Part shown: piece by piece, positions 20,281-56,793 of the stretch | Numbering within the stretch: position 1 is the first letter of the stretch | How the letters are laid out: the number at the start of each line of letters is the position of its first letter | Virus record (IMG/VR): IMGVR_UViG_3300037325_000203 | Strand: one strand, 5' to 3' | From: a virus | Length of the DNA: 64,000 nucleotides | Made by a program: the position numbers and the translations under genes | The notes under the pieces: generated by a model | What the model was told of the DNA's origin: nothing | Seen by the model: the letters and a program-made list of their open reading frames with translations, nothing else | Databases searched by the model: none

Positions 20281-20783
20281 CAGCCACTACACGCGACACA
20301 ATTTTCTTCCTCTGTTTTAATCACAGAATCAATTGTAGCATTGGCTTTAATTGTTCTAATATAGTAAATTGACTTGATTCCTTTACGATGTGCGTAATGT
20401 ATTGCATCGTATAATTGCTTTGCTGTAAAACTCTCATTACGTTGATCGAATATTAACTCCATAGAGCACCCTGTATCAATAAATTTCTGCAATTCGGAAA
20501 CGACATCGATAATTTCTGTTGCCGTATGCTTTGGAAATGTTTTACCGTATGCAATAGGATTATCTTTAAGAAATTTTGCAACAACTACAAGTTTACCATT
20601 CTTGTTATCTTCTGAAAAGAAGGAATCATAAACAGGTAAGATACTTGCACTAGAGTCCATATAGATCGAAGTACTTGTATTATGACTTACTATGCCATTT
20701 CCCATAAAATACGCATGAGAAGATGGAACTTCAAAATCTGCTGTCGGAATAGTCATTCCTTTTTCTATTTTTTTAATTTTCAT
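20280..20783 (-). CDS. nrdA: Split intein C-half (35 aa) + NrdA C-terminal extein
   Basis: MKIKKIEK...DFEVPSSHAYFMGNGIVSHN|TSTS; extein has QKFID..S, SIYY and terminal CVAC. Confidence 0.93.
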   Translation of the reverse strand: MKIKKIEKGMTIPTADFEVPSSHAYFMGNGIVSHNTSTSIYMDSSASILPVYDSFFSEDNKNGKLVVVAKFLKDNPIAYGKTFPKHTATEIIDVVSELQKFIDTGCSMELIFDQRNESFTAKQLYDAIHYAHRKGIKSIYYIRTIKANATIDSVIKTEEENCVACSG

Positions 20784-22023
20784 TTATAAAATTCCCCAGT
20801 TTATTAAATATGTATTGTTCTTGCATGGGTAAACTAAGCACTTCCCACACATGAATTATGTCGAATCCGTTCTTTACTGCTATGTCACGTTTTAGCTCAT
20901 CGTTATTATATTGTTCATCGGCCGATTTACCAAAGGGTGTTCTCCATGTTGTCCATTCTGCGTCAGATAATCCGAGCTTGTACGGGTGCCAAACTTTTCC
21001 GTTATATTCTACAATTAATTTCATAGACGGTATGCAAAAATCATACAACTTCGGTAATTTAGATTTATCATTGTATAACATTAATTCCTCGCTATCACCT
21101 ACACCCCATTTTATATCATTTCTATTAATGCCATGCCTTCTTAGGTATTTGTATATAGGTAATAAAAATTTAAATGCTGCTTTGGACGATTTATGCCGTT
21201 TTGTTCTATTAAATCCTGCTCTTGCAAATATTATTTCTCTTGCTCTCTCAATTCCGTGTGTTTTAGCCAACGATTCAAATTTACCACTCTCAGATCGTTT
21301 TAAATTAATATTATTATATTCGTCTAACGTATTATTGAATACATGACCGGCGCGTGATGAGGAAAATGAATTTCTATCATTCTTACTGTTGTATAACTTC
21401 GTGCCTTGTTCTTTACCGAATTTTTCTACATAGTATTCCAGTGTATTACTATAAGATACCCTATCACAAAACTGTTTATATTTTACCGGGCCATCACTTA
21501 CACCGTACCTTCTTGTGAATGACGGCAGATTGCCCGCAGTTTCAGTCTTAATCTTTGCTATCTTTTCTACAGCAGTCTCTACTGAATACCCCAAATTAAT
21601 CCATGTACTTATGTCATACGAATTAGGTGGTTTATTTTTGCACTTTGCCTGCGCAATCGGCGCATCCTCGTCAAAGTAATCATTGAAGAATAATGATGTA
21701 TTACATTCGTGGTTGCCTTGTCGTTTAAAGAATAAAGCATTAACCCATGCACGAGATATGCGCAATGTATTCATGCCATATTTAATATATATTTTAAAAA
21801 TAGTTGCAAGGTTGTATGATGTGTATTCATTGTGATATAAACCCATGAATAAATCTCGGGCTTGAGATTCTATGTAAGTAGACAGTATTATACCACGTGC
21901 ATTTAAATATCCACTCAGAGATTCTAATTTTTCAAAAGAAAAATTAGAATCTCTCCTGACACATTTTAAAAAATTAGACCCCGAAATTTTATATATCTTA
22001 TTATCGTATTTTACAACTGACAT
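20773..22023 (-). mobile_element. Free-standing Vsr/DUF559-like endonuclease between the nrdA halves
   Basis: RYG..G repeats; LYDFCIP...IVEYNGKVWH...K...A..NGF....VWE. Confidence 0.8.
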
Positions 22024-35636: not shown

Positions 35637-36983
35637 CTAGTTTTTCTTATTCTTAATGAAGGCCCTTAGTATTGCTGCTCCGGCAAGCGGGTCGGGCTTG
35701 TTTTCCCTTCGAGTGATAGATGTAACGTCCTCCGATTCGACACCTAATTTCTCACTAGCCCTGATAATACTCTTTTGCTTTAGCTTCTCATAAATATCCT
35801 TAGATGTAGCAGTAATGGCGCCATCATCCCCTTCCTCTAAGTCACTAATCCTTAGGCTCCTGTTGTTAAATGCTAAATCGACCTTGGATCCTACACCCGA
35901 ACTAGATCGAGTTTTCATAAACTGGATCTGATAGCGACCGCCTTCCTTCATCGCGGCGCTAGTAAAAATGCCTATGACATTATCTGCTGTGTTAACTTTA
36001 GAGATACCACCAGCGATGTGACTAGGATCGAATTCTATTTGTTCGTACGAATTGCGATTTAGCTGGGATGCAGATACAGTCACTGTCTGCAATTCTACTG
36101 CTAAGTTACGTAGCTCTTCTGTTATATATTTGTCCTTAACAAACAAATTTTCTGCAGATATCTTTTTACTCATTGGCATCATTAAGTCTAAGTAGTCAAC
36201 TAAAATTGCATCGACTTTGCGTTTAGCATATATTTCATATTCCTTGATGTAAGCTCGTATATCGTTGGAAGTACACCCATTAGGCAGTTGCTTAACCCTT
36301 AACGACCCTCCACTTTTTTGCTGCGATGATCTGACCTTCATGTGTACATCGTCGATATTTCTCATGACTTCTCGAGTCTCATACCCAGTGTGCATCGCAT
36401 CTATACGCATAGCACACAATTTTTCACTTAGTTCCAAGGAAAGGTATACCACATTCAGACCAGACATGGCCCAATTTACTGCAAGGTTCTGTAAGAAAAG
36501 GGATTTTCCTGCACCAGAATTATGGGACGATATTCCGTTAGTATAGTACCTGTGATTTTCACTATCTACTACCAAATCAAATACAAGATCTGTTTCATTT
36601 GTATCCAGAATATCAGACACTATTCTAAATCCGTTATCGGATAATAATTTATCACCTATTTGTAAATTAATTATAGATACCCAGCACCCGTATATATTCT
36701 CAAACATATGCATAGGAGACGCTGTAACATATGTACCGTCGGTAAATTGGACGCAATAAATTTCATAACTTCCCTTGCTAATCAAATGCTTAACTGGTAC
36801 ATAGCCATCCGGCGAATCTACAAACCAATCATTTTTACATTTATTTAAATCAAAGATATTATATTCGATCGGTTGCATTTCAAGATATAATCTTTCAAAT
36901 GTGTCTATGTCCTGAGATTGATATTTAATTAATGTTTCTCTATCGTAAAACTGTGATAGGTATTCAATTTTTTCGTAATTCAT
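35637..36983 (-). CDS. gp41: Split intein C-half (155 aa, long) + gp41 helicase C-terminal extein
   Basis: SPDGYVPV...TASPMH (block B)...FDLVV..HRYYTNGISSHN|SGAGKS; extein has SLELSE, VDYLD, SQLNR, KTR. Confidence 0.93.
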   Translation of the reverse strand: MNYEKIEYLSQFYDRETLIKYQSQDIDTFERLYLEMQPIEYNIFDLNKCKNDWFVDSPDGYVPVKHLISKGSYEIYCVQFTDGTYVTASPMHMFENIYGCWVSIINLQIGDKLLSDNGFRIVSDILDTNETDLVFDLVVDSENHRYYTNGISSHNSGAGKSLFLQNLAVNWAMSGLNVVYLSLELSEKLCAMRIDAMHTGYETREVMRNIDDVHMKVRSSQQKSGGSLRVKQLPNGCTSNDIRAYIKEYEIYAKRKVDAILVDYLDLMMPMSKKISAENLFVKDKYITEELRNLAVELQTVTVSASQLNRNSYEQIEFDPSHIAGGISKVNTADNVIGIFTSAAMKEGGRYQIQFMKTRSSSGVGSKVDLAFNNRSLRISDLEEGDDGAITATSKDIYEKLKQKSIIRASEKLGVESEDVTSITRRENKPDPLAGAAILRAFIKNKKN

Positions 36984-38055
36984 TTATTTTAAAATTCCTA
37001 TTTTTTAAATCATTATTCCAGAATACATAATATTTTGTGCCTGTAAAAGTATTTAATATGTGATTTTTCTTTATATTATCGTTTCGATAACTATCCCCGT
37101 AAGTCCCGAGATGTGGCAAAGGCTTGTTATCTACTTCTATTATTTTATTAGATAATTCTTCTTTATAATCTGAGAAATTTATATGCCCGGGGCCGTGAAA
37201 CTCCATAATACACAGTAATTCTTTCTTCGCCGAATCTGCAAATACAGCTAAATCATATCTTCTAAATCCTGCAGTGGGTATCCATTGGAAATACTGTTCA
37301 GTTGGTGCACCGAACATACAATTTTCTCTATTGATATTATTTTGTTCTATAAATAGATTTACTGCCTGCATTTCCTGGCCGTTAATATTAAAGGATTTCT
37401 GAAGGGTCTTTAAGTAATGAGCCGACCTTTCGTCTTGTGTCTTGTTTTTCCAAGTCTGTTTCCGCTTATTGCAAGCATATCTGTATTTAATTGCACCTTC
37501 TATAGTTCCGTATTTCTCTATATAAAACGGTAACCCGCGTGCCTGATATGTTGTTACTAATACCTCAGCAGATTCTTTATCGTATCCCTTCTTTTCCCAG
37601 TATTCAACACACCTTACACTACACTTTCGATGATTTTTATTTCGGGAACTACCGGAGGCCATGATCTGATGATTTCTTACCTTCTCTATCGCCTCTGCTT
37701 CGGTAAATCCTTGATTTGTCCAATATATCTTTCTCGATGGAAAATAATCTTTGATTTTCGATAAATTATTATTCCATCTCTTTAAACCTAATTCGGCTCC
37801 ATACAAAATACAAAAATATTCGACACTCATTCTCTCATGTTTTAAAAGATCGAATTCTCGACTAATAACATCGGAATACCCTTGTTTTAAAAACCAGGCC
37901 AGGCGCATAAAATGATCTTGCGATTTTCTATAACCGCGCAAATCGAAATAGTCTAATAATCCACTTTCCTGTTCTGGTGTCAATAATATATCTGATAATA
38001 TTTTCTTAACTACTTTTATGTTTAAAAACTTCCTGATATACATTTTCCTGTTCAT
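36964..38055 (-). mobile_element. Free-standing Vsr-like endonuclease between the gp41 halves
   Basis: YW..G...EA and KYG...G repeats; RYDLAV...MEFHGPGH...FW; start moved to MNRK (AAGGGA RBS, late promoter at 38091). Confidence 0.75.
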
Positions 38056-38725
38056 AATAAATTCCCTTTTGCTGATCACTCTGGCTAAAGTATTTATCAA
38101 TATCTATAACTCTTATTGCTTTTACTTTGGTGTCCGCAGTAACGCACTGACCTGCAAATATTGTTAGTTCGCCTTTATTAAGTCCGCCGTATAATTTTTC
38201 ATCTACTGTTTTCCACCCCGTAGAGCACTGACCTTTGCCTTCCCGAATAGCCTCTAGGCGCTCTTTCGGGTTTGCGTAATAATCTGTTCCCAGGTCTTTA
38301 ACTAGTGCAATTTGTACAGCCGCTTTAATAGTTGCCTCGACTTCCCCGTATCTTCCTTCGTCGAGTAGATCAGGAGATGCAAGAATGGCATCTCTAAGTG
38401 CTTTGTGTCTACAGAATTTTTCAAACTCTCTCAGAAACCATTCGTCATGCAGGGCGGCCTCGGCCTCCATCATGTTAATTTCTTTCCTAGTAACCGCTTT
38501 GATTTGTACTAAGGATGGTATGCTCACGAAGTCTGTGCTATATCCTTCAATAAATGCCACTGTGTCCCTGTTTTGCTTATCGTCGAAATACTCGGACTTC
38601 AATATTCCTTTGCATCTGACAAACAGGTCAGGTTTACTCATCATGAAGCTAATGAACAGATCTTCTATGTCCGTACTGTAGTCATTAATTTCGCTTGCGT
38701 TTTCTGTCTCTAGCATTTTGTTCAA
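38006..38725 (-). CDS. gp41: gp41/DnaB-like helicase N-terminal extein + short split intein N-half (46 aa)
   Basis: DLGTDYY, STGW..VD.KLYGG..KGEL.IFAGQ|CVTADTKV. Confidence 0.92.
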   Translation of the reverse strand: MNKMLETENASEINDYSTDIEDLFISFMMSKPDLFVRCKGILKSEYFDDKQNRDTVAFIEGYSTDFVSIPSLVQIKAVTRKEINMMEAEAALHDEWFLREFEKFCRHKALRDAILASPDLLDEGRYGEVEATIKAAVQIALVKDLGTDYYANPKERLEAIREGKGQCSTGWKTVDEKLYGGLNKGELTIFAGQCVTADTKVKAIRVIDIDKYFSQSDQQKGIYYEQENVYQEVFKHKSS

Positions 38726-53741: not shown

Positions 53742-54827
53742 TCAGATAAAAATAGGCATAGGAGAATCATAGCTGTTATCGTCTGAGGATGCTATATTAC
53801 TATTAGTTGCAGCTTGTGATTGGTCATCCCACGTAGAAATATAATCTGTCATGCGTAATGCAAGGATAAGAGCCATGATTAAATCATCTGTCTGCCCGTT
53901 TCTTGCTTCGTACGTATTACCTCTAGACACGAATACCTTAAGCTCGGAGATTATTCCCCTGGAGTTGAGTTTCAGTCGTTGGGATTCTAACAAAAACTTC
54001 AATTTGGCGCAAGCTTCGAGCTTAGACTTATTAGTAGTTACAAACCCGGCACGCCGGCCCGACTTTCCTTGTAATCTATTCTTAGGGTCGTGTAGCATTG
54101 TTCCGGGAAAGTTTTCCTCGCCTGTATCCCTAATGACTACTAATGCTGCTTCACCAAGTGTATTGCTTTCTACTGACCAGTATATTTCTGGACGCCCTGC
54201 TGCTGCCAGTTCTTCCAGTATATTACGCATAGTCCTGACCTGATCTTCAACTGGCGCCTTATTGTTACTCCATTCTGCAACTTGCACTAGCGTAGGCAGT
54301 TCAATGACCTGTATTGCAGAATTATCGCCGCCGGTTCCCATAGCAGGATCTAATGCAACAACATATGTCAGGTCTGCTCTAATCGGCGAATACCATCTTA
54401 CTTGCCCGGTCTTTCTGATCGGCTGAATGGATGTAATTTGACTTAGCTTAACGGCATTGATAAGAGTTTCTTCGAAGGTAATAAACTGGCAATTCGAAAC
54501 TAAAATACCATTTCCATAAAATCTATTGCCGCCGTGGACACCTATAACATCATAAACATTAGACACCGCACCGGTGTATATCGACCCAATAAGTTGCAAA
54601 TGTCCATAGATAGATAACACCATATCGCCTAATTTAATATCCTTTGCCTCTATCATATCACTATCATTTATATAGATCTTATGATCGTCAGTGCATTCTA
54701 AAAATATACCATTAGGAAAATCTAATCTAATTATTGCCTTTTCGCCCATGAATGCTATGCCGGCAAAAGGCATATAACCGTCAGGGGTATTTATTTGTAA
54801 TCCTAGTGTATTTTCTCTATAGATCAT
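53742..54827 (-). CDS. gp17: Split intein C-half (112 aa, long) + terminase nuclease-domain extein
   Basis: TPDGY..F...ECTDDH (block B)...VYD...FYGNGILVSN|CQF; extein has LDPAMG.GGD, ESN, DDL.MA. Confidence 0.92.
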   Translation of the reverse strand: MIYRENTLGLQINTPDGYMPFAGIAFMGEKAIIRLDFPNGIFLECTDDHKIYINDSDMIEAKDIKLGDMVLSIYGHLQLIGSIYTGAVSNVYDVIGVHGGNRFYGNGILVSNCQFITFEETLINAVKLSQITSIQPIRKTGQVRWYSPIRADLTYVVALDPAMGTGGDNSAIQVIELPTLVQVAEWSNNKAPVEDQVRTMRNILEELAAAGRPEIYWSVESNTLGEAALVVIRDTGEENFPGTMLHDPKNRLQGKSGRRAGFVTTNKSKLEACAKLKFLLESQRLKLNSRGIISELKVFVSRGNTYEARNGQTDDLIMALILALRMTDYISTWDDQSQAATNSNIASSDDNSYDSPMPIFI

Positions 54828-55872
54828 ATCTTAATATCTCATATTCTGTTAGTGTCTTAAATAACCATACTTCGTATTTATGCCCCTTAGATAAGACTGC
54901 ATCTTTCTTTTTAAGATTATTGATTAATCTCGACTTATAGATATCCTTTAGGTCGCCATTGCCATCCCACCAATACTGTGCCTTAACCTCGATGATTCGA
55001 TTTTCTGCTGGAATAAAAATATCAGGATAATATTTTAATAGTTTTCTGTCATTTGTTACATATTCGAATATAGGTAATTCATATTTTTCAAGTGAATTAT
55101 GTATGATTAAGTCGGTCTCGACATACCCTTGATTAAATAATGAATCTAATACTTTATTTTCATATCCTCGTATGTGAACTATCTTTCCGGACGGTAATAT
55201 ATAATCCTTACCTATTGCGTTAGACTGACGTGACTTCTTAATTGCCTCTGGTATAAGAAATGTACAACTCACGCCAAATTTTTCTATATTTGTCAATCGA
55301 CGGATCTGATTTATCTCATTCTGTTCTTCTATAGTTTTATTTCTATTTGTTTCTGCAGATTTCTGCCACCCTGCATAATATTCGTTTCCGTATTTTCTTA
55401 GCTTTGTAGCTCTTGATTTATTTTTATTATTAGTCGATTGAGTGGAATGTACGACCCCAAATTTTACTAAATTCGTGTCTTTTCTTTTTTTAATAATCTC
55501 ATTATATTCATCGTCTGTGCGCTGTGAGACTGCAAATTTTTTATTTGCTTTATCACTCTCTTGCTGTTCTTTAGACCATCGAGATTTAGTAGCATGTACT
55601 TCTTTTCCTACACATGCCGTACTACCGCATGTCTTGCCATAGGTGTGATCCTTTTGGTAGAATGTCTTAGGAGAATTGCAGTGCAGACACTGCTCCTTAG
55701 TACCTGTTATGTATTTTTCGTAATATTGTTGATACGAAATATTATTATTTCGTAAATGCCTAGTGAATTGCCCATTAGACTTACAATACCGCACATTGTC
55801 AATTATTGATGTAATATAGGTTGCTTCACTCATTATGATTTCGATTAAATAGTTATTTTCCAAACTATTCAT
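54817..55872 (-). mobile_element. Free-standing PD-(D/E)XK endonuclease between the terminase halves
   Basis: CxxC motifs, KFGV/KYG repeats, RGYE, YYPDIFI....IIEVK; start may be 55833. Confidence 0.8.
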
Positions 55873-55875
55873 CTC

Positions 55876-56793
55876 TTAGCCTAACATACCGAATAGGTCT
55901 CCGATTGTTATGTCGAATTTTTCAGTATTTTTATCCGATATTTGTAAGAGTGTTGTTTGCGCGCAACACTTATGCTCACGAAGGAAACGGTCCTCGCCTA
56001 AGGACGCGAGCTGTTCATCTGCCCAACTTTCGTCTCTGTCAGGATGAGCTTCCCACGTAGCCATATACGGCTTAAATCCATTAGTGCCCGTGACTGTTTC
56101 GTTGCCATTATTATCCACTAGCTTGTTGGCGTTGAACCAAATGTCGGCGAACTGGTCTTCATCGGTATTCGGCGTTGATGTGATTATGCACTTACCGCCC
56201 GTCGATAGTGTCGGTGCCAATGAAGTCCAGAATTCTTTTGCAATGTTTGCATCGACGAAAGCGAACTCATCCAGATAGATTAACGATAACGCCATTCCTC
56301 GACCTGTGTTTTGTGTAGTCGTTGTTGCCGTGATTTTAGAACCGTTGTCGAACACAATGGAGCGTTTGTTATATGTCGTTACTCCTGCTCGTATATGGTC
56401 TGGTACAGATTCATACGCATAGCGAACCCTGTCCATGATATCCTGTGCAGAGTCGTACTTGTAGGATGTTACTAATATCTGTGAATCATCGGTGAACATT
56501 GCGTACCATAGGAGATACCCTGCGGCAACAGCAGTCTTGCCCATCTGCCTACTTACCATATTCACTGATTTTTTGAAGTGAGTATATGAATCAATTAAAT
56601 CTAATTGAAAATCGTATGGTGAAAATTTTTGTTTTCCCCGGGTCGAGTGCTGCACATACATGAAGTTGGAAACAAAATACAAAGGACCCGTGTCGGGATC
56701 CATACATGCAGCGAGCTGGTCTATCTGCTCCTTTGTATAGGATACCTTTGTATACGCACGCTTAACTAACTTATCGTCTTGATATATTGCCAC
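55876..56793 (-). CDS. gp17: Terminase large subunit ATPase extein + short split intein N-half (30 aa)
   Basis: YDFQ, SRQMGKT, GRG, LDEFAF, STPN, FLREHK|CCAQTTLLQI...ITIGDLF. Confidence 0.93.
   Translation of the reverse strand: MAIYQDDKLVKRAYTKVSYTKEQIDQLAACMDPDTGPLYFVSNFMYVQHSTRGKQKFSPYDFQLDLIDSYTHFKKSVNMVSRQMGKTAVAAGYLLWYAMFTDDSQILVTSYKYDSAQDIMDRVRYAYESVPDHIRAGVTTYNKRSIVFDNGSKITATTTTQNTGRGMALSLIYLDEFAFVDANIAKEFWTSLAPTLSTGGKCIITSTPNTDEDQFADIWFNANKLVDNNGNETVTGTNGFKPYMATWEAHPDRDESWADEQLASLGEDRFLREHKCCAQTTLLQISDKNTEKFDITIGDLFGMLG

What the first reader, a model, noticed from the sequence alone, without database searches (positions are those of the whole stretch)
35637..38146. gp41 intein split extremely close to its N-terminus, inside the helicase P-loop
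Seen: IntN (38009..38146) is CVTADTKVKAIRVID plus a tail whose last 50 nt overlap the endonuclease gene. The 155-aa IntC (36519..36983) carries the I..L segment (IEYNIFDL), SPDG, block B and blocks F/G, preceded by about 38 non-Hint residues. Inference: the functional N-half may be only about 15 aa, as in VidaL-type atypical inteins. The two extra segments may be remnants of an insertion at a non-canonical site. A peptide this short would be useful for semisynthesis.
Basis: partly seen in the sequence, partly recalled or inferred. Interest (0 to 1): 0.78.

Follow-up and report, generated by a model that had tools for sequence, protein, structure and literature searches.

The report
VidaL-type split intein in phage helicase
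A salt-lake phage encodes its replicative helicase as two genes cut inside the ATP-binding loop by a lopsided split intein with a selfish nuclease gene between the halves; it is an uncharacterised relative of the known VidaL intein, and its short half is probably about 22-28 residues long, not 15.

Summary
On the minus strand lie helicase-N + a 46-aa IntN (38009..38146), a 363-aa nuclease gene (36964..38055) and a 155-aa IntC + helicase-C (35637..36983). Splicing would restore the Walker A sequence FAGQ-SGAGKS, exactly as in intein-less relatives.

The IntC's best solved relative is VidaL (6vgv, E 3.5e-8), a natural split intein with a 16-aa IntN. The VidaL comparison is therefore right. This is a fractured gene with an S1-type atypical split, a known kind.

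- Unsplit relatives exist. P0007's 187-aa intein equals a split relative's IntN(1-28) + 4 residues + IntC(155), at 82.5% identity.
- The two "extra segments" are halves of one clade-specific helical insert. In the AlphaFold2 model this is a short helix, a loop and three helices. They are not debris.
- The nuclease gene sits in the insert's loop.
- IntN residues 29-46 are unconserved read-through over the nuclease gene's start.
- Natural IntNs in this clade are 22-46 aa and always keep the first helix. A 15-aa functional IntN is untested.

Three unlike nuclease genes occupy this split region in different lineages. This scan has logged similar helicase inteins on other DNA. Verdict: new variant of a known kind, moderate interest. 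Splicing was not tested.

The parts
38147..38716 (-). N-extein: DnaB/gp41-like helicase N-terminal domain up to the first half of Walker A (..TIFAGQ). The ATG is at 38716; a TTG at 38725 is also possible.
   Evidence: P0121, 236 aa. Intein-less relatives read FAGQSGAGKS without a break.
38063..38146 (-). IntN conserved part, residues 1-28. It comprises Cys1, the block A beta-hairpin (about residues 1-15) and a short helix, IDKYFSQS..KG, which is the first part of the clade-specific insert.
   Evidence: It aligns without a gap to residues 188-215 of the contiguous P0007. AF2 of P0007 gives a strand at 194-200 and a helix at 203-207.
38009..38062 (-). IntN tail, residues 29-46. It is unconserved read-through that overlaps the 5' end of the nuclease gene in another frame.
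   Evidence: (no comparable residues in the 14 relatives).
38091..38098 (-). GATAAATA, a late-promoter-like motif inside IntN codons D17-K18-Y19, 35 nt upstream of the nuclease ATG.
   Evidence: The motif is conserved in L001 and L002. Function is inferred only.
38063..38068 (-). AAGGGA Shine-Dalgarno-like site for the nuclease gene, formed by IntN codons K27-G28, 7 nt before the ATG.
   Evidence: Equivalent AAGGA/AGGA sites are present in L001 and L002.
36964..38055 (-). Free-standing homing-endonuclease-like gene (363 aa). It has an N-terminal helical repeat region and a C-terminal domain with a restriction-endonuclease-like (Vsr / I-Bth0305I-like) fold.
   Evidence: 343 homologues. Invariant residues Y267 D268 E285 G288 H291 D326 K329 W346. 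AF2 mean pLDDT 91.4. VIA-align Z 6.5-7.4 to RAP, TnsA, Vsr 1cw0 and I-Bth0305I 3r3p over residues 220-363. No Pfam, PHROG or PDB sequence hit.
36996..36999 (-). AGGA Shine-Dalgarno-like site for the IntC-helicase gene, 12 nt before ATG 36983 and inside the 3' end of the nuclease gene.
   Evidence: L001 and L002 have the same spacing.
36870..36983 (-). IntC head, residues 1-38. This is the second half of the clade-specific insert (three helices; conserved YLSQFY and LY..MQP).
   Evidence: It corresponds to helices 223-228, 234-243 and 245-254 of P0007, with pLDDT about 88-90.
36519..36869 (-). IntC Hint core, residues 39-155: I..L segment, SPDG, block B (SPMH), block F, and block G ending SHN.
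   Evidence: VidaL 6vgv at E 3.5e-8 over residues 55-154. PF14890 below its cut-off. Alignment.
35637..36518 (-). C-extein: the rest of Walker A (SGAGKS) and the DnaB_C RecA-like domain.
   Evidence: PF03796 at E 5.4e-16. 80.6% identical to the C-extein of P0007.

Best explanation
This is a fractured replicative-helicase gene of an uncultured salt-lake phage. It is rejoined after translation by a naturally, atypically (S1-type) split class-1 intein of the VidaL family.

Shown here:
- There are three overlapping same-strand genes: helicase-N + IntN, a nuclease gene, and IntC + helicase-C.
- All canonical splicing residues are present: Cys1, the block B His, the block F Asp, the terminal His-Asn and Ser+1.
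- The predicted spliced product has the Walker A sequence seen in intein-less homologues.
- IntC is homologous to VidaL.
- Unsplit relatives show that the break lies in the loop of a clade-specific helical insert that follows the first beta-hairpin.

Inferred:
- The ancestor was a contiguous mini-intein that carried this insert.
- A free-standing nuclease gene cassette landed in the insert's loop, after the codon for Gly28. It brought its own start and used intein codons as ribosome-binding sites.
- The two polypeptides now associate through the IntN hairpin (about residues 1-15), probably helped by the short IntN helix (residues 16-24) packing on the three-helix head of IntC. They then trans-splice.
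- IntN residues 29-46 are a by-product of overlap with the nuclease gene and play no role.
- The nuclease promotes spread of the cassette into nuclease-free or intein-free alleles during co-infection.
For: - Layout and coordinates.
- VidaL homology: (E 3.5e-8). One search shows VidaL aligning end to end with a T4-like member of the same family, with G(-1) and SG(+1,+2) flanks.
- Family size and forms: 148 hits; split forms of about 445 aa, contiguous forms of 650-663 aa; IMG/VR loci with the same three-gene layout: L001, L002, L004-L015.
- Continuity of the insert. P0007's intein equals L002's IntN(1-28) + TEDK + IntC at 82.5% identity. L002 still encodes ..EDK just upstream of the IntC start.
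- Structure of the insert. The split point falls in the pLDDT-59 loop at residues 208-222.
- IntN lengths of 22-46 aa, with conservation up to about residue 28.
- Intein-less alleles read FAGQSGAGKS.
- Exteins are about 79-82% identical across relatives, compared with 41-63% for the intein parts.
- Nuclease gene.
- Ribosome-binding sites and overlaps are conserved in L001 and L002.
- Both junctions are present in contigs of other runs.
Against: - No splicing assay and no RNA or protein data exist. No RNA run holds the stretch.
- Pfam intein models score below their cut-offs on this IntC.
- The AF2 model of the precursor is only moderate (mean pLDDT 73) and is poor at both splice junctions. I could not inspect 3D contacts, so packing of the IntN helix on the IntC helices is not shown.
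- The nuclease fold match is middling (Z below 8), and no nuclease activity or target site is known.
- The cassette-insertion point was deduced from proteins only.
Confidence: 0.82

Rival explanations
1. One reading: the working IntN is only the first ~15 residues, as in VidaL, and everything after it (residues 16-46) plus IntC residues 1-38 is dispensable baggage.
For: - VidaL-type relatives in the same family have natural IntNs of 13-18 aa.
- The insert-less contiguous relative L061 shows that the Hint fold does not need the insert.
- Residues 16-28 are less conserved (36.5%) than residues 1-15 (62.9%).
Against: - None of the 15 natural IntNs of this clade stops before residue 22. All keep a helix-forming segment.
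- The IntC head keeps near-invariant positions (YLSQFY, LY..MQP) in both split and unsplit forms.
- The head is modelled with pLDDT about 88-90, which argues for a folded unit. That unit might sterically or energetically need its partner helix.
Confidence: 0.25
2. Conservation of IntN residues 16-22 (I-D-K-Y-F-S-Q) is imposed by DNA, not protein. The codons GAT AAA TAC form a GATAAATA late promoter, plus a downstream ribosome-binding site, for the nuclease gene. On this view the helix has no role in fragment association.
For: - GATAAATA at 38091..38098 lies 35 nt upstream of the nuclease ATG.
- The same motif lies 18-47 nt upstream of many minus-strand ORF starts in this window.
- It is conserved in L001 and L002.
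- Dassa et al. 2009 (PMC2677866) describe T4 late-promoter-like elements in front of the endonuclease genes of fractured genes.
Against: - The nuclease-free contiguous relative P0007 keeps the protein motif as DEYFSQS, and split P0131 has DEYF. Neither can encode GATAAATA at the K18 position, because K is replaced by E.
- A second IntN subtype (LNELRRNF) is also conserved as protein.
- The motif count in the whole window is not above chance (37 against 28.5 +/- 5.5).
- The predicted hairpins are not significant.
Confidence: 0.3
3. The locus is a dead helicase gene disrupted by a selfish nuclease gene. No trans-splicing occurs, and another helicase does the work.
For: No expression or splicing data exist. 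Only 64 kb of the genome could be examined, and no whole genome is held.
Against: - All splicing residues are intact, and both extein halves are highly conserved (79-82% identity across relatives).
- The same split layout persists in relatives whose intein parts have diverged to 55-64% identity.
- The overlaps and ribosome-binding sites are conserved.
- Intact ORFs are seen in several samples.
Confidence: 0.04

Closest known systems
VidaL intein (natural atypically split intein, 16-aa IntN; PDB 6vgv/6vgw; Neugebauer et al. 2017 and Burton et al. 2020, as cited in PMC13014065)
   Same: - Homologous Hint core: E 3.5e-8, IntC residues 55-154 against chain residues 44-141.
- Cys1, terminal His-Asn and Ser+1 are shared.
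- Both are split next to the first beta-hairpin (S1 region) and before block B.
- The flanks of the VidaL chain (G at -1, SG at +1 and +2) fit the same Walker A insertion point.
- From memory only, not checkable here: VidaL was named T4Lh-1, for a T4-like helicase.
   Different: - About 35% identity.
- The window's clade has an insert of about 55 aa (a short helix, a loop and three helices) between the hairpin and the I..L segment, and it is split inside that insert rather than directly after strand 2.
- IntN is 46 aa (28 conserved) against 16. IntC is 155 aa against about 129.
- A same-strand restriction-endonuclease-like nuclease gene lies between the halves. VidaL-type loci found here carry a reverse-strand HNH gene instead.
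Fractured genes of Dassa et al. 2009 (PMC2677866), including gp41-1 to gp41-9 and the terminase split at an 'unusual point'
   Same: - Phage DNA-metabolism gene split as extein-N + IntN, a free-standing endonuclease gene, and IntC + extein-C.
- Reading frames overlap.
- A late-promoter-like element lies before the endonuclease gene.
- A primase gene lies upstream of the helicase, as at gp41-8.
- The endonuclease has a Vsr-like fold.
   Different: - The gp41-1 to gp41-9 inteins described there are canonically split (IntN 88-105 aa) and sit at other integration points. gp41-1 to -7 are at the position that corresponds to QLNR| in this family. Here the site is Walker A and the split is atypical.
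- The only atypical case in that paper is a terminase.
AceL-TerL / GOS-TerL / Cat inteins (S2-type atypical split; IntN 25-37 aa)
   Same: A short IntN and a long IntC in a phage P-loop ATPase. The Hint core of the window's IntC is also related to TerL inteins of Vi01-like phages (35-41% identity).
   Different: Those are split after the first helix of the minimal fold (S2) and sit in a different host protein. This same phage carries its own TerL-type atypical split intein at 53742..56793.
PolB16 OarG intein (S1-type, 15-aa IntN, 168-aa IntC; PMC10189870)
   Same: A natural S1-type split, a long IntC and a phage-like polymerase host. There is a weak sequence match (E 0.4-0.6).
   Different: It is cysteine-less (Ser1/Ser+1). 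Its extra length comes from an insertion at T84-D101, not at the split site.

Membership tests
Class 1 intein (Hint domain) | Nucleophile at position 1 and at +1, block B His, block F Asp, terminal His-Asn | tested here: met
   Cys1 (38146..38144); His in SPMH; Asp in FDLVVD..SSHN followed by Ser+1. All are conserved across 27 aligned family members.
Class 1 intein (Hint domain) | Hint fold recognised by profile or structure | tested here: met
   - PDB hits: VidaL at E 3.5e-8, then gp41-1, CatC, Mxe GyrA and PolB16 inteins.
- Pfam PF14890 reaches only 19-23 bits against a cut-off of 35.8.
- AF2 of the contiguous relative gives the expected all-beta core after the insert.
Class 1 intein (Hint domain) | Protein splicing activity | not testable with these tools
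   This needs co-expression or an in vitro assay.
S1-type atypically split inteins (VidaL, PolB16) | Halves encoded by separate genes; the break lies before block B, next to the first beta-hairpin | tested here: met
   There are separate ORFs with stop and start codons. Block B lies in IntC. The break is 13 residues after the hairpin, inside an insert that occupies the S1 position.
S1-type atypically split inteins (VidaL, PolB16) | IntN within the 15-37 aa reported for natural atypical split inteins (PMC13014065) | tested here: not met
   The window's IntN is 46 aa. Its conserved part is 28 aa and relatives have 22-37 aa. The excess is read-through over the nuclease gene.
S1-type atypically split inteins (VidaL, PolB16) | Sequence homology to VidaL and the same insertion site | tested here: inconclusive
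   Homology is met. The insertion site is inferred only from the G(-1) and SG(+1,+2) residues of the crystallised chain, which may be engineered. The VidaL papers are not held.
Fractured gene (Dassa et al. 2009) | Order extein-N + IntN, free-standing endonuclease gene, IntC + extein-C on one strand, in a phage DNA-metabolism gene | tested here: met
   The same order occurs in L001, L002, L169 and L004-L015.
Vsr-like homing endonucleases (I-Bth0305I family) | Vsr-like catalytic domain recognisable by sequence | tested here: inconclusive
   The window protein has no Pfam, PHROG or PDB sequence hit. One of 25 relatives hits DUF559 (E 0.0024) and one hits MTES_1575 (E 0.0044).
Vsr-like homing endonucleases (I-Bth0305I family) | Vsr / restriction-endonuclease-like fold with conserved acidic, His and Lys residues | tested here: inconclusive
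   - Residues 220-363 align to I-Bth0305I 3r3p (Z 6.5, 92 of 98 residues) and to Vsr 1cw0 (Z 6.5).
- These are tied with RAP and TnsA (Z 7.0-7.4), and all are below Z 8.
- Invariant D268, E285, H291, D326 and K329.
Vsr-like homing endonucleases (I-Bth0305I family) | Site-specific DNA cleavage at the empty allele | not testable with these tools
   This needs a cleavage assay.

The most novel reading that the evidence does not exclude
The clade-specific insert is a dedicated docking module. The short helix at the end of IntN completes a small helical bundle with the three-helix head of IntC. This S1-split intein would then assemble by helix-bundle completion rather than only by capture of a beta-hairpin. 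That would be a natural, transferable affinity handle. It would make these inteins orthogonal to VidaL-type ones and would explain why no natural IntN in the clade is shorter than 22 aa.
Probability: 0.25. Interest if true: 0.55.

Novelty: new variant of a known kind. Interest (0 to 1): 0.38.

Why it matters
Atypically split inteins with short N-fragments are valued for protein semisynthesis, and few natural ones have been characterised. This locus adds no shorter IntN than VidaL (16 aa) or PolB16 (15 aa), so its direct tool value is modest.

Its main value is evolutionary. One helicase intein family contains several forms side by side:
- intein-less alleles;
- contiguous mini-inteins with and without a helical insert;
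- split forms in which three unlike nuclease genes occupy the same region just after the first hairpin. These are a restriction-endonuclease-like gene with a C-terminal nuclease domain, a Vsr-like gene with a different architecture, and a reverse-strand HNH gene.

This offers a concrete, testable account of how atypical split sites arise: invasion of a tolerant loop by a free-standing nuclease gene. It also supplies matched split and unsplit pairs (82.5% identical) for asking what a fragment needs in order to re-associate.

Tried and rejected
DNA of the contiguous relatives (P0007 and others) could not be fetched, so the cassette boundaries were not compared at nucleotide level.
- No whole genome is held for the window, so I could not search for a second helicase.
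- The papers by Burton 2020, Bachmann & Mootz 2015 and Stevens 2018 are not held. A search for 'T4Lh' found nothing. VidaL's host gene is therefore from memory.
- The IntN region alone gave no PDB hit.
- A viral-contig scan with P0007 returned almost only intein-less alleles and no contiguous intein-bearing locus.
- A scan with an LNELRRNF-type N-part found no locus of that subtype. Co-variation of IntN tail type with IntC head type therefore could not be tested.
- The nuclease ORF gave no Pfam, PHROG or PDB sequence match, singly or as a profile. Foldseek found nothing at E<=0.001.
- The IntC head alone (45 aa) gave no Pfam match. The ESM Atlas gave only generic Hint clusters.
- Sigma-70 promoter and terminator scans were at chance level.
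- RNA hairpins around the nuclease and IntC starts are not better than shuffles.
- No RNA holder was listed for the stretch. Runs X4-X6 hold only small parts.
- I considered a decayed pseudogene and rejected it (see rival explanations).
- I considered fusing IntN and IntC for a fold prediction but did not do so, because a fusion is not a sequence of the window.
Full report
**1. What is in the sequence**

Three overlapping ORFs lie on the minus strand.
- ORF 38006..38725 encodes a DnaB/gp41-type helicase N-terminal region. It ends ..ELTIFAGQ and is followed by a 46-residue intein N-fragment beginning CVTADTKVKAIRVID. The Cys1 codon is 38146..38144 and the stop is 38008..38006.
- ORF 36964..38055 encodes 363 aa from its first ATG. 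It overlaps the last 47 coding nt of IntN and the first 20 nt of the next gene.
- ORF 35637..36983 begins with a 155-residue intein C-fragment ending ..NGISSHN. This is followed by SGAGKS and a DnaB_C domain (PF03796, E 5.4e-16).
- A Toprim-type primase gene lies just upstream.

**2. The locus is real DNA**

The stretch occurs at 99% identity or more in contigs from several salt-lake metagenome runs. Contigs from runs other than the likely source bridge both junctions: X2 records 4 and 7, and X3 records 10 and 14. No alternative joined form was seen. These runs all date from 2020 and may belong to one sampling campaign.

**3. Kinship with VidaL**

- The IntC's best match among solved structures is the VidaL intein: 6vgv, E 3.5e-8, residues 55-154 against chain residues 44-141. 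Next come the gp41-1, CatC, Mxe GyrA and PolB16 inteins.
- A T4-like contiguous member of the same family (L010) aligns with the whole VidaL chain at E 1.7e-13.
- The crystallised chain shows G at -1 and SG at +1 and +2, which fits a Walker A insertion point.
- According to PMC13014065, natural atypically split inteins have IntNs of 15-37 aa. They are split either right after strand 2 (S1: VidaL, PolB16) or after the first helix (S2: AceL-TerL, GOS-TerL).
- Dassa et al. 2009 (PMC2677866) described fractured genes, including gp41 loci at other integration points and one terminase split at an unusual point.

**4. The family**

A search with the IntC part found 148 proteins.
- About 25 are split forms of about 445 aa that cover the whole IntC, including its first 38 residues.
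- Several are 650-663 aa (P0007, P0011, P0015, P0025), and P0034 and P0038 are similar. In these the helicase, the intein and the insert run in one chain.
- A larger set of about 375-400 aa lacks the first ~50 residues. These are VidaL-type.

IMG/VR loci gave genomic context.
- In the window's clade, L001, L002 and L169 have IntNs of 36 aa and a homologous same-strand ORF of 359-360 aa that overlaps both halves.
- L004-L015 have IntNs of 27-43 aa and a different 391-aa ORF (phrog_3339 'homing endonuclease'; weak Vsr match).
- T4-like loci have IntNs of 13-18 aa (for example CVHPDTKVRIRFRKKE) and a reverse-strand HNH gene of about 210 aa.
- Contiguous T4-like forms also exist (L010, L016, L045 and others).
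- One hundred and eleven further loci carry intein-less alleles that read ..FAGQSGAGKS... That is exactly the sequence splicing of the window's halves would produce.

**5. What the two extra segments are**

- In the alignment, IntN residues 16-28 and IntC residues 1-38 of the split forms align with one continuous stretch of the unsplit forms.
- P0007's 187-aa intein equals L002's IntN(1-28) + four residues (TEDK) + IntC(155), at 82.5% identity. The window's two parts align the same way at 58.5%.
- L002 still encodes ..EDK in the IntC frame just upstream of its start codon.
- An AlphaFold2 model of P0007 (mean pLDDT 73; intein = residues 188-374) has the following elements:
  - a strand at 194-200;
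  - a short helix at 203-207 (LDEYF);
  - a low-confidence loop at 208-222;
  - three helices at 223-254 (pLDDT about 88-90);
  - the I..L segment and the beta core.
- The split point, after Gly28, falls in that loop.
- The insert is absent from VidaL-type members and from the contiguous relative L061. It is therefore an optional module at the S1 position. It is not debris from a lost domain, and it is not created by the split.

**6. How much of IntN matters**

- Fifteen N-parts of this clade have IntNs of 22-46 aa.
- They are conserved to about residue 28. There are two subtypes: ..D(I/L)DKYFSQS..KG and ..LNELRRNF.E..R.
- Mean pairwise identity is 62.9% for residues 1-15 and 36.5% for residues 16-28. 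Nothing is comparable beyond that.
- The window's residues 29-46 are translated from DNA that encodes the nuclease N-terminus in another frame.
- The IntC head averages 40.9% identity, with near-invariant positions (YLSQFY, LY..MQP). The Hint core averages 59.1% and the exteins about 79-82%.
No natural member drops the following helix, and its role is open.

**7. Expression signals**

- AAGGGA, formed by IntN codons K27-G28, lies 7 nt before the nuclease ATG.
- AGGA, inside the nuclease 3' end, lies 12 nt before the IntC ATG.
- Both are conserved in L001 and L002.
- GATAAATA (38091..38098), formed by codons D17-K18-Y19, lies 35 nt upstream of the nuclease ATG. The same motif precedes many minus-strand ORFs in the window by 18-47 nt. 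Overall the motif is not enriched, and the hairpins are not significant.
- There are no terminator-like sites between the genes.

**8. The middle gene**

- It has 343 homologues. Invariant residues are Y267, D268, E285, G288, H291, D326, K329 and W346.
- It gives no Pfam, PHROG or PDB sequence match. One relative each hits DUF559 and MTES_1575.
- The AF2 model has mean pLDDT 91.4. It shows a helical N-terminal region and an alpha/beta C-terminal domain.
- Foldseek found nothing significant.
- VIA-align matches residues 220-363 almost only to restriction-endonuclease-like folds: RAP (Z 7.4, 7.0), TnsA (7.0), Vsr 1cw0 (6.5) and I-Bth0305I 3r3p (6.5; 92 of 98 residues).
- This fits the Vsr-like homing endonucleases of Dassa et al., but the scores are middling. 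Membership is inconclusive.
- The gene shares an N-terminal repeat with the window's nrdA-associated gene (E 3e-5), but nothing with the TerL-associated gene, which is a DUF7487 protein.

**9. Most likely mechanism**

- A contiguous, insert-bearing mini-intein in the helicase Walker A loop was invaded in its insert loop by a free-standing nuclease gene.
- The two halves are now made as separate proteins, probably from one transcript with translational coupling. They associate and trans-splice to give a normal helicase.
- The nuclease spreads the cassette.
- Shown here: the layout, the homology, the continuity in relatives and the restoration of Walker A.
- Inferred: association, splicing, nuclease activity and promoter use.

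**10. Comparison and novelty**

- The locus works like VidaL and PolB16 (S1 split) and is arranged like Dassa's fractured genes.
- It differs in four ways: the helical insert that contains the split, a longer IntN, the type of nuclease gene, and the host clade. The helicase is closest to PA5oct-like jumbo phages.
- I found no paper that describes this clade in the library I could search. The key VidaL papers are not held.
- Earlier notes of this scan describe similar Walker A helicase inteins with a three-helix piece on other DNA. They agree with this reading but are not independent evidence.
- The same phage also carries split inteins in nrdA, uvsW and TerL.

**11. Verdict**

This is a new variant of a known kind, of moderate interest.

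Noticed in passing
window 38091..38098 (-); also L001 and L002 at the equivalent place: GATAAATA, formed by IntN codons D17-K18-Y19, lies 35 nt upstream of the nuclease ATG. The same motif lies 18-47 nt upstream of many minus-strand ORF starts in this window. It may be this phage's late promoter, here embedded in intein coding sequence.
   Followed up: partly
proteins P0053, P0004, P0038 (relatives): Some family members carry a second intein N-fragment, or a whole intein, after QLNR|C (the gp41-1 / gp41-8-like site). Those helicases are encoded in three pieces joined by two different split inteins. The window's helicase has no intein there (..QLNRNSYE..).
   Followed up: no
window 53742..56793 (-): The same phage has a TerL gene fractured by a second atypically split intein. 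Its IntN is 30 aa and starts CC. Its IntC is 112 aa and ends ..VSN. A 351-aa DUF7487 gene (54817..55872) lies between the halves.
   Followed up: partly
window 20773..22023 (-) versus 36964..38055 (-): The nrdA-associated endonuclease-like gene and the helicase-associated one share only a helical repeat module of about 50 aa (W..GY..E.A ... YG...G..KY; E 3e-5). This suggests a shared DNA-binding module on different nuclease domains.
   Followed up: partly
L031, L036, L043, L044, L052, L058, L060 (upstream of the T4-like helicase C-part): Canonical-length split-intein N-fragments (89-102 aa, for example CVIAGTKIQLADG..) end other genes 1.4-2.6 kb upstream of the VidaL-type IntC genes. Several fractured genes therefore cluster in these T4-like contigs. 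My first regular expression wrongly paired them with the helicase IntC.
   Followed up: no
GenBank phages, for example Vi01-like Salmonella phages: The closest relatives of this Hint core in cultured phages are contiguous inteins in terminase large subunits (35-41% identity over residues 41-155), not helicase inteins. This hints at exchange of inteins between P-loop sites of different ATPases.
   Followed up: no
L004-L015 (IMG/VR): A sister group of the window's clade has IntNs of 27-43 aa, a gap of about 1.7 kb and a 391-aa ORF with a weak Vsr match near its N-terminal half plus GNAT-like matches. This is a different architecture from the window's nuclease gene.
   Followed up: partly
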